Assembly: GCA_037379345.1 (NCBI GenBank)
Contig: CM074517.1
Location: 20,274,001-20,338,000, forward strand
Source: Perna viridis
Taxonomy: Eukaryota
Direction of reading: 5' to 3'
DNA length: 64,000 nt
Part shown: piece by piece, positions 6,001 to 42,000 of the stretch
Numbering within the stretch: position 1 is the first letter of the stretch
How the letters are laid out: each line of letters begins with the position of its first letter
Made by a program: the position numbers

Positions 6001-9000
6001 TACAAAGTAATAAAGGTAAATAAGCAACTCGCCTCCAAAAGAACTGTGGGCATGGACAAGGTGCACCGGTAGCGTAAGCGTCCTCTGCTTTTCTACAAAC
6101 ACCCGCCGAGTTGCTCATAAGAATTTAAAAATTGGGTACACGAATGAGAAAAAGAAAACTATGACATTTTGAACAAATAAGTTTTCGTGATGGAGATAGA
6201 TACATCGTAACGACCAGGAGTTTATGATGACTATAAAACTTCTGTTGCGATGACTTCAATCTTGTAGCAATATTACACTGTTCCAGAAGTCTAATTGTAA
6301 GAAGTATTGTACGATACAAAAAAAAGTCTGAAAAGTTACGGCAATGGAATCTCTAGCGGAAGGTATAAGTTGTGATATGAAAACACCATACGCAGGTGTT
6401 GAAGGGATATTGCCACAGATGAAAGGAAAGTTTACAATACGGAATGAAATGTCATTGCGTTTTTCATATAGTTTGGTCACTTGTTCTCCTTTACCATTTA
6501 TCTCTACGTTTAGGTCAAGATATGAGGCTCACTTCACAGTGTCTGAAGTATCCTTTGTATCAATTGCTTTGACGTAGAACTTGGTTTGTTTAACGATAAT
6601 TCGACATCTGTATAGCCGAAACTGAGATTCTTCTTTTGAATATAAAGCCAGCCTCATAGAGTGAAGGAATAGGCCAGAAAGTAGACTGGTACAATTTTGT
6701 CCAATTGGAATGCCAACCGTTGGTTGAAAAAGGCGTCCACCACACAAATGTGTTGTCGATCAAAAATTCCTGCATTTTGAAATATTTCCCCGGTATGTAT
6801 GATAGATGATTTGGAATTAATTTTCACAGAGTTTGACGAATGTCTACCAATAATTATATATTTGTATCTATTTGTACCGTCCTTTTTAAAGGCAGACTTA
6901 AACATGTTTTTTTTATTTCAGGCACTTCTTGATGGATTACCCTAGGCCAACAAAAAGATGAAGATACATAACGCTGCATATATGTTGCTTTTCCTGTTAA
7001 ATTTAGAAATGACCAACACTCAAAATACAGGTTAGTCTCATACAGAAAAAAAGTTAAACACATGTAAGCTAATGTTCGATATTTCTACAACTGTAAACAG
7101 TGTTTTGAACAATGAGCATTGGATAGAATGATATACATACGATGAACATAGGATAATATGATAAACTACATTATCGGTTATTAGTACAAAGTTTCTTTCA
7201 TATGTATTTTCTGACTATGTTTGGATCGGGTAATTCGTACTTGCAACCATTACAGAAATAGTAAATGAATATAAATGAAATTCGCTACATGTAAAGCAAT
7301 ATCTTAACCATTTATCCTGAAGTAAATCAACACTGCACTTTGCTAATCCACGAGTACGAATTGCTTCAGTCTTGTAAACATGTACATGTAAACCGTCTGC
7401 TCACGTGCTGAAGAACAAAAGTGGGAAAACCATGATGCTGACACGAATTATGCGGCCGGTGTTAATATTTTCTTGTAAACTAATTACTATTAAGTGCTAT
7501 TATACGGTAAAACAAATACATGGATAGTGACCAGATAACCGACAATATTTATCTTCCTTTGTACTTTTTTACTTTTACATTACAGGGGAATCGAGTGACT
7601 TTATATTCAAGAGAACAAGCAAATTATGTCAGATATAGCAATTCACAAAAACAAATAATTAATTCTTTTAATTCTAATCATGAAGCAAAAAACTGTCAAA
7701 AAAATATCTTGTGATACGTCAACCTTCTTTTGTAACGCTTCTTCAACTGATGCATGTGCAAAATTTTGACTGGAACGTATCATAAATCATGATGATCAGT
7801 GGTCTTACGATAACCTAGTCTCCATCTATTTAATTTTTATGGGTAATATTTTTAACCTTCTTGAAATAAATAGCACCATTCCCTTTTAAAATTGGCAAAA
7901 AACTGTTCAAAGGAATATATGACAATTTTGTTTTCTATAGTAACTTAATCACAGAGAGCCTTTTATTCCTATATCATACATACAAACCAGTAAATTGTGT
8001 AGTGAAACAATATATCCAGCACTATATATTGAAACAATATTTTAAATATTAGACAGCGACACAATCAATTTTGGATTTTATTAAATCGACGCTTTATAAA
8101 AATGGCAAAATGGTCGATAAAAAGTTTATCAAGGATATGACTCGAAAATGACAAATACCATTTTATGTTCATAGATTTGGTAACCCTATCAGTTCTACCT
8201 TTGTGGTCTAATTTTCGCACTGAGTCTTCGGGAATTGCGGCTACAAAGACGACAAACACAAAAGAAACAACCTCAACTGGAGCTTTTATTCTTGTATCGC
8301 AAATGATACCAACATCAGTTCTAGCTACACGGTCAATGATTGTAGAAAGCGCTACATTGATTAAAGGAGAAAAGAAATCAATAGCAACTGAGCCATCATT
8401 TGTTGAAGCTTCACTATCTTCTAAAATACAAACCGTGACAATACTAACTGACGCTACCATACGTAATACAGATCAGGACACTTTCCCAAGACAACAGTTT
8501 GTGACATCGTCAATGAACAACAGTGCACTTACTGATAAATTGTTACCGATAGGTGAAACAATGTCAATGACAAATGTTCTACCATCTACTATTTCTATGA
8601 AGGAAATTGCTTCAAGAACCTCAATGGAGACCATGTCAGTAACTACAGAAAAACTGATTCAGCAAATCACAAAATCAATTGTTGTTAAAGAAATAGAGAC
8701 GTCAAAATATGTGACAGGAACAACACATAGTACACATTTATTGACGTCTCCTGTGTCGAAACTATTATCGATTGAAGCTGCAATGGCAAACGATACAGAT
8801 AGAGGTTTATCATATACTACAATAAAGGAATTCAATAATTATTCCGATAGCACATATATCAAAGTTTATGACGTAACTTCTTTATTAACACCATCGACGG
8901 GTCAAGCAATAAATGAAGCTACAATATCATCTGCAATAAGAACTAATCCAGAAATGACTAAAAATGAACACATCATTTCATTGACTTCTGTCCCGCTACC

Positions 9001-39000: not shown

Positions 39001-42000
39001 TGTAAGTGTTTTGTTTTTGTTTTTGTTTTTGTTTTTGTTTTTTTTTTGGAGGGTTTAGGGAGGAAGTTTATGGTGGCATATAGTTTTAAATTATGACAAT
39101 TTTGATAGTGTAACCGTTAATCGACACGCTTATCAGAAACTTTATTTTGTATGCTTTGATATTCTTTAATTATCTACAACAGCAATGCATCCTATCATAA
39201 TCAACAATTGATGAGAGGCATTATCAAGCACATTCTGAAGGTGAACATTTCAGATGATTTAACCCTGATACGACAATCATAATCCCCTAACAATGAGCAA
39301 TTCAAAGAAGAATAACAGGAAAATATTTCTTCATGGTTTTGTAGGGAATTTCTTTGTAATTTCCGGTTAAAAGTGAATGTTCACATATATAAGGAAAAAA
39401 TCAGATCAATTGTTATTATTATTTTATTTATTTATTCATTTATTCATTTATTTTTACTTTTTTTCGCATTTTTTGCATTTTGTTTGAAATAATTACATTG
39501 TGATATCTTTTTAATACATTTTAAAATTCAACAAAATAGCAGCATATCTTGCCTATCCTAGTTACCGCTGAGAGAGAAAGACAGAGATAAAACAGCTGAT
39601 CCCCTGAGATTGCTGCAGATGTATGTAAGCGGTTATATATCAATTCATGTCTTAAGTTTTATATGTCATTTTTGCTTTTTCAGGAAGTTCAAGGAAATAT
39701 AATTCCACGTGGGAGTATATATATGAAACTCTTGGAGGAAAAGAAAAGGTAAACGGTTATTAATACAATTGAAATGTATTCGTTTAGTTGATATGCGAAC
39801 GACGTCTTTACTCATATATTTTAAAGGGTTAAGGTAAATTCAGCTTCCATGGTGATTTCCTGTCGTTCCACGTAAAATTAAAAAAGTTATTAATTGTATA
39901 TTGAAATTTCAAAATGCAGGTGTATGACACACTAACCTTAATTTCATCTTAAAATCTAGCTATCTACTTGTAATTAATTTCAGTTTTCCATAGAACGTCC
40001 TAAAGCCAGTCTCGAATTTAACAGAGTATACATGGTAGGTGAATGTTTTCGCAAGTTATTAAAATGAGTAAAAACTAATTACTCATTACACCTTCAGCAC
40101 TTGCACTAGGAACTAAAAAATGGTTTCATATTAAGTGCTTTGAACGGGTAAGCTATGTATGTCTTGCTCCACCTGCAAACACTTGTAACATTGCAAGTGT
40201 AAGTGAGTAAAATCCGGTAAGCGTTAAATTCCGTACCTTGTTCATCCGGTCTGATTTAGAAAGAGTAATCAAGGGAACCAAGATTCTAGTGAAAATTAAA
40301 GGAATGTAATCCAGAAATAAAGCCAGACATAGAAAAGAGACAAACGTAATAAATAGCATAAAGTGACTAAAATATTAAATAAAACGTATCAAAAGTAAAT
40401 GAGCAACTCGGACTCCACTAAAACATTAAGTTCGAATAATTTTGTTACCTTATGAAACAGAGAATAAAGGTGACCTCTCGCAAATATATACATCCTGCAG
40501 CTAACGCAACTCACAATTCAAAAAAATTAACATATCAATCAATTACATGTTTATGCTTTGGTTTTAAAAAAAACATGCATAACACTTTCAATATTTATGC
40601 TTTCAGGGGAATGATTCATACACCTGATCTATATATATGCTTGTATGACGGCTGAATTGTGAACCAAAGTTTTAGTCCCCACTTACTTTCGCATATGTTC
40701 ACTTTAACTTGTGCATTATATGTAAGAATATTTAGATATGAATGTTTTGGTGTATATAATAAAGAATATAATTTATACTTCATAATTACTTTTGTGCAAA
40801 ATCTGTATTCAGATGCCTATAACTCATTTCTGCCATGCATTGTGTCTTCAATATCAAAGGTATATGTAATAGTATCAAAATATTAGTGCATCAAAATCAC
40901 ATATTTTGTCTGGTAAAACTGCATTGTAAAATACTCATGTGCTGTGCTTTACTGTTATGAAAATATCATGTTTTTTCTAAGAATAAATTGTAACATTGAT
41001 TAATCATCTGTCTGTTTAATGATTTAACCCTTTTATCTACTGTCATAGCTTTTGTCCCGTTAATGATGCAATTGAAACAACACACTTCTACATATTTATA
41101 CAAAACATAACAATAATTAAAAAATTGCATATTTATGTATGCTGTAAACGTTTTTCGATAAGTAACATCATATCAGCACCATGAAAATCATTAAACATAT
41201 AAATATAGTTCAAGATCTAAGAATTAATACAGACCAATATGTTCGAGCTATGAAACCAAATCTAGGTCCCATGTTCTGCAAAAAATGTCAAGGAAGCTAT
41301 ATTTATATGACACAAGGAATTAAGCCTCAGTGATTTTGTGTTTCTGACATATGTTAACAAATATCATGTAAAATGAGTCTTTTAATTTGAATTAGATTGA
41401 TTTATCAGATGTCCAGTACATTATATTCTGGGTTTCATACAAGGCTGAATACAGGAACATGTTTACGATTATGGTTGGCCCACATGAATCTAGAAGAAAT
41501 AGGACAGCTACAGAAAGATCGGAAACGTTATGACATTAGTTTTTCCTGCGACGGACAGCATTACGGAGAATACGTCTCCATCATTGTATATTATTTGAAA
41601 TGTTTTTTTCTGCAATTCATCATTCTGCTCTGTGTCTTTAGTGGGTAATTTATTACCCGACCCTACAAAACACACACTACTTAAAAGAAAAGGTACGCGG
41701 CATTATGATATTCAAATTGTACGATTTAAAATGAAAGAATGGTTTGGAGTACCTAAAGTTAGTTTTGTTTACTAGATAAAAACAAACAAAAATGTTGTAT
41801 CTCTATGAGTAAATGATAATTTGACTGAAACCAATTCAAACATAATGTCATCTATATGTACATGCAAGTTAAAGGTTATGATTAATTATTCAATTCTACA
41901 AACGTTACTTTTTAGGTATATTGTCATGGTCAGAAGAACGTCGATAAGTCTGACAATGGTGAGGTCAGTTGATAAGATAAAATTAAATTATTCATCAATT

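What the first reader, a model, noticed from the sequence alone, without database searches (positions are those of the whole stretch)
6958..40627. Two-stage giant membrane mucin: a second acidic repeat stalk lies between the SEA/Cys module and the membrane
Seen: twelve or thirteen exons join with matching phases into ~5,680 aa, ordered SP-PTS1-SEA-Cys4-PTS2-TM-tail. Known: in vertebrate MUC1/3/12/17 the SEA(-EGF) unit sits next to the membrane. Here it is ~1,770 aa away from the TM. Inference: cleavage would release one mucin domain and leave a chemically different, polyanionic one on the cell, giving a two-layer glycocalyx from one gene. The ORF track makes it look like two separate genes.
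Basis: partly seen in the sequence, partly recalled or inferred. Interest (0 to 1): 0.7.

Follow-up and report, generated by a model that had tools for sequence, protein, structure and literature searches.

The report
Giant orphan mucin-like surface protein locus
Two huge repeat-coding exons, probably in a mollusc genome, most likely belong to one membrane-anchored, sugar-coated surface protein, but the proposed self-cleaving SEA domain and the link between the two halves are not shown by the sequence.

Summary
The two giant + strand reading frames are real and kept open by selection. One is 8175-18979: 3,601 aa, 7.5 repeats of 477 aa, 30% Ser+Thr. The other is 30385-35702: 1,772 aa, 133 units of 13 aa, 56% Ser+Thr, net charge -337, 59 N-glycosylation sequons.

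I checked six canonical GT-AG junctions by hand, and all are in phase. They link a signal-peptide-like exon, the first giant exon, three small exons with 7 Cys, the second giant exon and a transmembrane exon.

Phase matching of the small exons is not beyond chance. Equally good in-frame chains arose in 137 of 200 shuffled intervals and in 4 of 5 control stretches. The cytoplasmic tail exons cannot be determined from sequence (804 possible chains).

No tool detected a SEA domain, tested exon by exon only. The predicted hairpin reads I-E-I-S-A-S-S-L-V-A, not G-S-V-V-V, so self-cleavage is unsupported.

There are no homologues except one 285-aa fragment of the same locus.

The best reading is one lineage-restricted type-I membrane mucin-like gene (confidence about 0.5). 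Two adjacent genes is a serious rival (about 0.35). Only transcripts can decide.

The parts
6958..7030 (+). Candidate first coding exon. It has an ATG and 24 codons with a hydrophobic core (signal-peptide-like), and it ends in phase 1 at CAG|GTTAGT.
   Evidence: Sequence. Donor score 5.01. It is the best of 3 ATG-to-donor candidates with a hydrophobic core in 1600-8170. No signal-peptide predictor was available. An in-frame ATG at 8165 inside the intron-exon boundary is an alternative start.
8175..18979 (+). Giant exon 1 of 3,601 codons. It holds 7.5 x 477-aa Ser/Thr-rich repeats, then about 120 aa of unique Ser/Thr-rich linker, then a 36-aa non-repeat stretch with hydrophobic periodicity. It ends in phase 0 at GCC|GTAAGT.
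   Evidence: The frame is kept open by selection: 7.6 stops were expected in the diverged copy and 0 of 2,000 simulations were stop-free. dN/dS is 0.945 and the indels are in multiples of 3.
20729..20799 (+). Small exon candidate of 71 nt (23 codons plus 2 nt), going from phase 0 to phase 2.
   Evidence: It is the only bridging exon found under strict thresholds. Acceptor score 3.94, donor score 1.88. Sequence. It is present in all 8 in-frame chains.
27746..27930 (+). Small exon candidate of 185 nt (61 full codons). It has an amphipathic stretch followed by C-x2-C-x5-C.
   Evidence: Sequence. Acceptor score 3.26, donor score 0.52. It lies in a 128-codon stop-to-stop frame. It has no Pfam, PDB, Atlas or homologue match.
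28251..28332 (+). It ends in phase 2. Read-through gives a stop at 28334-28336.
   Evidence: Sequence. Acceptor score 2.17, donor score 0.32.
28452..30018 (+). Dispersed retroelement fragment (reverse-transcriptase-like ORFs) that fills most of the intron 28333-30384.
   Evidence: ORFs. RVT_1 match below the cut-off (E 0.0045, 17.1 bits against 29.6). Other copies occur in the window (inverted pairs I2-I5, I7, I9, I12, I15). The nearest Atlas cluster is commonest in Mollusca.
30385..35702 (+). Giant exon 2 of 1,772 full codons. It holds 133 units of 13 aa (consensus SLTSTDTESTTNE), is acidic and carries 59 N-X-S/T sequons. It enters needing phase 2 and ends in phase 1 at TAG|GTAATA.
   Evidence: 31.9 stops were expected and 0 of 500 simulations were stop-free.
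36184..36319 (+). Transmembrane exon with a hydrophobic segment and a basic stop-transfer cluster. It ends in phase 2 at CAG|GTATCG. Read-through would end the protein at the stop 36360-36362.
38594..38774 (+). Possible cytoplasmic-tail exon (an acidic cluster and a Tyr motif). Unverified.
   Evidence: Sequence. Acceptor score 1.35 and donors 0.21 / -0.94. No homologue. No Pfam match.
40607..40627 (+). Unverified.
   Evidence: Sequence. Acceptor score 4.36. It is not uniquely linkable to the transmembrane exon.

Best explanation
The locus encodes a lineage-restricted ('orphan') giant mucin-like glycoprotein, most likely as one type-I membrane protein gene.

The parts, in order, are:
- a signal-peptide-like exon;
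- a 3,601-aa exon of 477-aa Ser/Thr-rich repeats;
- a module of roughly 150 aa, built from the last 36 aa of that exon plus three small exons, with 8 Cys in all;
- a 1,772-aa exon of 13-aa Thr/Ser/Glu repeats;
- a membrane-spanning exon with a basic stop-transfer cluster;
- a short tail of unknown exon structure.

What is shown: both giant frames are coding and under selection to stay open, while their amino-acid sequence drifts almost neutrally. This is the usual signature of a domain selected for composition rather than for fold.

What is inferred: the protein passes through the secretory pathway and is densely O-glycosylated. The membrane-proximal part is also N-glycosylated at its 59 N-E-S sequons. 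It would then stand on the cell as one very long, polyanionic brush for barrier, hydration or lubrication, and possibly cation binding.

Nothing supports self-cleavage. Unless another protease sheds it, the whole chain stays tethered.
For: CODING.
- Both frames are open over 3,601 and 1,772 codons, while the other two forward frames hold 327/324 and 123/141 stops.
- Simulations gave no stop-free outcome: 0 of 2,000 and 0 of 500.
- Repeat copy 1 against copy 2 shows 64% amino-acid identity, dN/dS 0.945, and indels only in whole codons.

ONE GENE.
- All six junctions are canonical and in phase.
- The first giant exon ends in a 36-aa non-repeat stretch directly before a GTAAGT donor, so it must continue downstream.
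- The second giant frame has an upstream stop 29 nt before its best acceptor. Its first Met is about residue 33 and has no hydrophobic leader, so it needs upstream exons.
- No signal-like first exon with a phase-2 donor exists in 28340-30380.
- At least 1,567 of the 2,052 nt between the Cys exon and the second giant exon are a retroelement. The original intron was therefore about 485 nt.
- The only membrane segment followed by a basic cluster in the window follows the second giant exon, in phase.

COMPOSITION.

DISORDER-COMPATIBLE: an AlphaFold2 single-sequence model of one 477-aa unit has mean pLDDT 29.4.
Against: - No transcript or annotated gene model could be found.
- In-frame small-exon chains of equal splice quality arise in 137 of 200 shuffled intervals and in 4 of 5 real control stretches. 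The real interval itself offers 8 chains.
- Read-through at 28332 gives an immediate stop with AATAAA 6 nt later.
- Four weak alternative first exons with phase-2 donors exist in 19000-28340.
- The first repeat domain has only 30.3% Ser+Thr and 20-35% hydrophobic residues per 40-residue window, so 'mucin' is a loose label for it.
- A low pLDDT without an alignment does not prove disorder.
Confidence: 0.5

Rival explanations
1. There are two adjacent genes on the same strand. Gene A is a secreted mucin-like protein: signal exon, 477-aa repeats, then the Cys module. It ends at the stop 28334-28336, or already at 19013-19015. Gene B is a membrane-anchored acidic mucin whose signal-peptide exon has not been identified.
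For: - A stop codon lies directly behind the 28332 donor, and AATAAA follows at 28342-28347.
- Phase matching is at chance level.
- Candidate first exons with phase-2 donors exist at 19193/19235-19284, 20954-21045 and 23613-23671.
- Mucin genes often lie in tandem clusters (established knowledge, recalled).
Against: - The candidate first exons for gene B are weak, with short or charged hydrophobic cores.
- None lies in the 2 kb directly upstream of the second giant exon.
- A stop right after a phase-2 GTAA donor is expected for any such donor, and AATAAA is frequent at 32% G+C.
- A Cys module ending a secreted protein with no membrane anchor would leave the only membrane exon to a gene without a start.
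Confidence: 0.35
2. It is one gene whose central module is a true SEA domain that cleaves itself. The distal repeat domain is then held non-covalently and can be shed, leaving the acidic stalk on the cell (a two-layer glycocalyx).
For: - The order of the parts fits.
- By eye, the module has a strand-helix-strand-strand-helix hydrophobic pattern. The SEA topology used for this comparison is recalled, not tested.
- Divergent SEA domains often escape sequence searches (Pei and Grishin 2017; seen only as a reference entry, paper not held).
Against: - There is no SEA match exon by exon: Pfam gave 0 SEA matches among the 10 pieces scanned, PDB phmmer gave a best E of 0.75 and none of the matches was a SEA domain, and the Atlas gave no usable hit.
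- The predicted hairpin reads I-E-I-S-A-S-S-L-V-A across the 20799/27746 junction. MUC1 cleaves between Gly and Ser of G-S-V-V-V (PMC9564314, passages). No Gly is present here.
- The exon chain that makes the module is itself unproven.
Confidence: 0.08
3. The arrays are non-coding satellites or a dead gene whose open frames are an accident of the repeat unit.
For: - The repeats are very similar to each other, so one open unit copied many times gives a long frame.
- dN/dS is near 1.
- No homologues were found.
Against: - Given the observed divergence, 7.6 and 31.9 stops were expected and none is present. None of the 2,000 and 500 simulations was stop-free.
- All indels between diverged copies are whole codons.
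- Canonical splice sites sit at both ends of both frames.
Confidence: 0.03

Closest known systems
Vertebrate SEA-type transmembrane mucins (MUC1, MUC3, MUC12, MUC13, MUC17)
   Same: Both have a signal peptide, one giant tandem-repeat exon rich in Ser/Thr, a small globular module encoded by short exons, a single membrane span and a short tail. Both are presumed to act as a glycocalyx brush.
   Different: Here no SEA or EGF domain is detectable and there is no G-S-V-V-V motif. A second 1,772-aa repeat domain separates the module from the membrane. The first repeat domain has only 30% Ser+Thr. There is no sequence similarity at all.
IMPG2 / SPACRCAN
   Same: It has a SEA domain far from the membrane segment, with a long glycosylated stretch in between. 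In human IMPG2, SEA1 is at 239-390 and the TM at 1100-1120 (PMC10558372, passages).
   Different: IMPG2 has a second SEA domain and two EGF-like repeats next to the membrane, and it cleaves in SEA2. It is reported as vertebrate-specific in that paper. Nothing comparable lies next to the membrane exon here.
[quoted passage not shown]
   Same: They place a Ser/Thr-rich domain on both sides of a SEA module (PMC4948705, introduction passage).
   Different: Those proteins are secreted and have many SEA copies. Here there is one undetected module at most, plus a membrane anchor.
MUC16
   Same: It is a giant membrane mucin with a large repeat unit (MUC16 has many SEA modules; PMC4456727, passages).
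   Different: In MUC16 the repeats themselves are SEA modules and the last ones lie next to the membrane. The 477-aa unit here matches no family.
Agrin (recalled, no call)
   Same: It has a SEA domain flanked by two Ser/Thr-rich stretches.
   Different: It is a matrix proteoglycan with laminin-G, EGF and follistatin domains. None of these is seen here.

Membership tests
Mucin (PTS domain as described in PMC4948705) | Ser+Thr at least about 40% of the domain | tested here: inconclusive
   the second giant exon has 55.9% (met). The first giant exon has 30.3% (not met). The criterion comes from passages.
Mucin (PTS domain as described in PMC4948705) | Proline often above 5% | tested here: inconclusive
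   the first exon has 182 of 3,601 (5.1%). The second has 8 of 1,772 (0.45%).
Mucin (PTS domain as described in PMC4948705) | Tandem repeats encoded in one large exon | tested here: met
Mucin (PTS domain as described in PMC4948705) | Dense O-glycosylation of the protein | not testable with these tools
   This needs glycoproteomics or lectin/PAS staining of the expressed protein.
SEA-type transmembrane mucin | A SEA domain (Pfam PF01390) recognisable in the sequence | tested here: inconclusive
   Tested exon by exon only. Pfam gave 0 matches, PDB gave none and the Atlas gave none. Pieces of 23-61 aa have little power, and the joined module was not tested.
SEA-type transmembrane mucin | G-S-[VI]-V-V self-cleavage motif in the strand 2 / strand 3 hairpin | tested here: not met
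   The sequence across 20799/27746 reads I-E-I-S-A-S-S-L-V-A. The motif is taken from PMC9564314 and PMC4456727 (passages).
SEA-type transmembrane mucin | The module lies next to the membrane segment | tested here: not met
   1,772 codons lie between 28332 and 36184.
SEA-type transmembrane mucin | Single membrane span with a cytoplasmic tail | tested here: met
   The 19-residue hydropathy mean is 2.82, followed by 10 K/R in 22 residues. This combination is unique among 237 ORFs. The exon structure of the tail is unknown.
SEA-type transmembrane mucin | N-terminal signal peptide | tested here: inconclusive
   The hydrophobic core scores 2.47 over 9 residues and this is the best of 3 candidates. 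No dedicated predictor was available.
SEA-type transmembrane mucin | EGF-like domains beside the SEA domain (MUC3/12/13/17; recalled) | tested here: not met
   There is no EGF match in Pfam. The two small exons carry 3 and 4 Cys in C-x2-C-x5/6-C patterns, not the six-Cys EGF pattern.
IMPG2-like proteoglycan | A second SEA domain plus tandem EGF-like repeats directly before the membrane span | tested here: not met
   The repeat exon runs to 35702 and the membrane exon starts at 36184, with only 8 residues before the hydrophobic segment.

The most novel reading that the evidence does not exclude
One transcript encodes two chemically different glycosylated repeat domains: a distal, moderately Ser/Thr-rich domain of 3,600 aa and a proximal polyanionic one of 1,772 aa with a regular N-glycan sequon in every second unit. 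They are separated by a highly diverged SEA-like, disulfide-bonded module that acts as a force- or protease-sensitive breakpoint. On this reading a mollusc epithelium could shed an outer layer while keeping an inner acidic, cation-binding layer made from the same gene.
Probability: 0.08. Interest if true: 0.55.

Novelty: new member of a known kind. Interest (0 to 1): 0.3.

Why it matters
If the single-gene model holds, this would be an invertebrate membrane mucin-like protein of about 5,600 aa with two repeat domains of very different chemistry. That would make it a useful case for how glycocalyx layers are built outside vertebrates. It would also show how mucin-type genes arise anew from repeats, because neither domain has a relative in 1.84 billion representative proteins.

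As it stands, the locus is mainly a caution for annotation. ORF-based tracks split it, and splice-phase arguments alone cannot join it.

Tried and rejected
- **Pfam.** A scan of ten pieces of the interval and of ten further pieces gave nothing above the cut-offs. The membrane exon gave only sub-threshold hits to single-pass families (E 0.058-0.099).
- **PDB sequence search.** The 27747-27929 exon and the end of the first giant exon gave a best E of 0.75 and 0.99, to unrelated proteins.
- **ESM Atlas.** The 61-aa exon gave no usable hit.
- **Homologue searches.** The first giant exon was searched against proteins of 1,980-6,302 aa: 2,411 candidates were scored and none passed. The 61-aa exon against 108-2,000 aa gave 15 candidates, none passing. 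The possible tail exon against 105-2,000 aa gave 3 candidates, none passing.
- **Representative search.** One 477-aa unit found 1 protein, P0003. It is 279/281 identical to the start of the same frame and comes from a 2,583-nt contig.
- **AlphaFold2.** A single-sequence model of one unit had pLDDT 29.4. It was too poor for a fold search, so none was run.
- **Complex prediction.** Three exon peptides sent as separate chains gave no verdict (score 0.02 against a mark of 0.34). This is no evidence either way.
- **A SEA-like-looking stretch at 21330-21459.** I considered it as the middle exon and rejected it. Its acceptors score -1.36 and -0.86, and it needs the poor donor at 18983 (-6.89).
- **Ungapped dN/dS between repeat copies.** This was invalid because of indels. 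I redid it on a codon alignment.
- **tblastn of each exon peptide against the window.** Only self-matches appeared and there was no paralogue.
- **Rfam.** 0 matches.
- **Tail reconstruction.** 804 chains, none unique.
- **Papers.** PMC5326570 is not held.

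
Full report
**What is in the sequence**

The window has about 32% G+C. Its two N runs lie outside the finding and were left alone. On the + strand there are two extraordinary open frames, 8141-19015 and 30356-35746 (translations).

The first frame holds 7.5 copies of a 1,431-nt (477-aa) unit.
- Copies 2-6, the five full-length later copies compared, are 98.5-99.7% identical in DNA.
- The first 300 codons of copy 1 are only 81% identical in DNA and 64% in protein to copy 2.
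- Between its splice sites the exon is 30.3% Ser+Thr and 5.1% Pro, with net charge -146.

The second frame is an array of about 133 units of 39 nt.
- The consensus unit is SLTSTDTESTTNE.
- It is 55.9% Ser+Thr and 19.8% Asp+Glu, with 13 basic residues, net charge -337 and 8 prolines.
- It carries 59 N-X-S/T sequons. The first position of the units found alternates between Thr (64) and Asn (63), so about every second unit reads N-E-S.

**Are the frames coding?**

Yes. The other two forward frames hold 327/324 and 123/141 stops.

I mutated a repeat copy to the observed divergence. On average 7.6 stops appeared, and 0 of 2,000 trials stayed open. The same test on the 39-nt array gave 31.9 stops, and 0 of 500 trials stayed open.

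Between the diverged copy and the others, dN/dS is 0.945 and all indels are whole codons. Selection therefore keeps the frame and the composition but hardly the sequence. That fits a glycosylated, largely unstructured domain.

An AlphaFold2 single-sequence model of one unit had mean pLDDT 29.4. This is compatible with disorder but is not proof, because no alignment could be built.

**Gene model**

I read six junctions from the DNA and scored them. All are GT-AG with pyrimidine tracts and all are in phase.

| Exon | Coordinates | Incoming phase | Outgoing phase |
|---|---|---|---|
| 1 (ATG, signal-like) | 6958-7030 | start | 1 |
| 2 (giant exon 1) | 8175-18979 | 1 | 0 |
| 3 | 20729-20799 | 0 | 2 |
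| 4 | 27746-27930 | 2 | 1 |
| 5 | 28251-28332 | 1 | 2 |
| 6 (giant exon 2) | 30385-35702 | 2 | 1 |
| 7 (transmembrane) | 36184-36319 | 1 | 2 |

These seven exons sum to 16,670 nt, which is 5,556 codons plus 2 nt.

The last exon encodes a hydrophobic segment (19-residue hydropathy mean 2.82) followed by 10 Lys/Arg in 22 residues. Five of 237 + strand ORFs of 40 aa or more are as hydrophobic, but only this one has the basic cluster.

**Is it more than chance?**

This is the weak point of the finding. I set thresholds at the model's own weakest sites. Under them the interval 18980-30384 offers 18 candidate exons and 8 in-frame chains, all running through 20729-20799.

The same search finds at least one chain in 137 of 200 Markov-shuffled intervals. 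It also finds chains in 4 of 5 real control stretches of the window, with 12-35 chains each. The reverse complement of the interval gave none. Matching phases therefore say little.

The '12 or 13 exons' and the tail cannot be checked from sequence. Read-through of the membrane exon would simply end the protein at 36360-36362.

**What still favours one gene**

- The first giant exon ends with 36 non-repeat residues of alternating hydrophobicity directly before a GTAAGT donor. This is too short for a domain, so downstream exons are needed.
- The second giant frame has a stop 29 nt upstream of its best acceptor and no leader of its own.
- No signal-like first exon with a phase-2 donor lies in 28340-30380. 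Four weak ones lie further upstream.
- At least 1,567 of the 2,052 nt between the second Cys exon and the second giant exon belong to a dispersed retroelement with other copies in the window. The two exons were therefore once about 485 nt apart.

**What favours two genes**

- If the donor at 28332 is not used, the frame stops at once, with AATAAA six bases later. Both features are common in such A+T-rich DNA.
- Mucin genes often lie in tandem (recalled).

I put two genes at about 0.35.

**The 'SEA' module and cleavage**

Following the scan's rule, the spliced model was searched exon by exon only. The joined sequence was not built, searched or folded, so the module as a whole remains untested.

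Piece by piece there is no SEA or EGF match.
- Pfam: 0 SEA or EGF matches among the 10 pieces scanned.
- PDB sequences: no relevant match.
- ESM Atlas: no usable hit.

Pieces of 23-61 aa give these tests little power.

MUC1 cleaves between Gly and Ser of G-S-V-V-V (PMC9564314 and PMC4456727, passages). There is no Gly here.

The two small exons carry 3 and 4 Cys in C-x2-C-x5/6-C patterns. With one Cys near the end of the first giant exon, that makes 8 in all. This is not a six-Cys EGF pattern. The inference that cleavage releases one layer is therefore unsupported.

**Relatives and taxon**

- One 477-aa unit, searched against 1.84 billion representatives, found a single protein, P0003 (285 aa). 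It is 279/281 identical to the start of the same frame and comes from an unnamed 2,583-nt contig. It breaks off where the repeat copies become identical, so it is the same locus in a short assembly and not a relative.
- Three word-based searches found nothing. Their length limits mean that proteins above 2,000 aa were not examined for the small exons.
- The retroelement's nearest Atlas cluster is commonest in Mollusca.
- The window shows nothing human-like.
- The closed contig collections were not used, and no eukaryotic genome or transcriptome collection was available. Orthologous loci and transcripts stayed unchecked.

**Comparison with what is known**

In outline this works like a vertebrate membrane mucin, but it is not a demonstrable member of the SEA-mucin family (see the membership rows).

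- IMPG2 has SEA1 at residues 239-390 and its membrane span at 1100-1120 (PMC10558372, passages).
- Xenopus has secreted proteins with alternating SEA and PTS domains (PMC4948705, passages).
- Agrin is a further case (recalled).

Three paper searches for molluscan SEA-type membrane mucins listed nothing on the point. This shows only that these searches found none. The supplementary mucin lists of PMC4948705, which I could not open, may bear on it.

**Verdict**

This is a real, orphan, giant mucin-like locus. It is probably one membrane protein with two chemically different repeat domains. The SEA identity, the self-cleavage and the tail are unsupported, and the link between the halves needs transcripts. 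Interest is moderate to low.

Noticed in passing
window 28452-30018 (+), 5779-6917 (-), 37004-37483 (-), 54511-54777, 57443-57703, 396-707, 50189-50326, 63368-63595: This is a dispersed retroelement family: reverse-transcriptase-like ORFs followed by a very hydrophobic ORF tail. It occurs many times in the window. One copy fills the intron before the second giant exon, and another ends 40 nt upstream of the proposed start codon.
   Followed up: partly
window 8165-9019 (+): P0003 is an unnamed public 285-aa ORF from a 2,583-nt contig. It is 279/281 identical to this stretch. It starts at an ATG inside the proposed intron-exon boundary and breaks off where the repeat copies become identical. That ATG, followed by a hydrophobic stretch, could be an alternative start that needs no first exon.
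   Followed up: partly
window 27746-27930 and 28251-28332: The two Cys-bearing small exons together are 267 nt, a multiple of three. Skipping both (20799>30385) would keep the frame, so an isoform without the Cys module is possible.
   Followed up: no
window 9736-17424 (-) and 30808-35826 (-): Antisense ORFs lie inside the two arrays: six ORFs of 177 aa at 1,431-nt spacing in the first array, and ORFs of 181-346 aa in the second. They look like by-products of stop-poor repeat units rather than genes.
   Followed up: no
window 2838-3635 (-): Two adjacent ORFs of 167 and 98 aa have no Pfam match above the cut-off. Their nature is unknown.
   Followed up: partly
window 53726-54240, both strands: A locally G+C-richer patch (0.36) has overlapping ORFs of 99-141 aa on both strands. 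It overlaps a dispersed repeat arm, so it is probably a transposon remnant.
   Followed up: no
window 30385-35702 (+): The first position of the 13-aa units alternates between Thr (64) and Asn (63), and the Asn units read N-E-S. This gives 59 regularly spaced N-glycosylation sequons inside an otherwise O-glycan-type domain that has almost no proline (8 of 1,772).
   Followed up: partly
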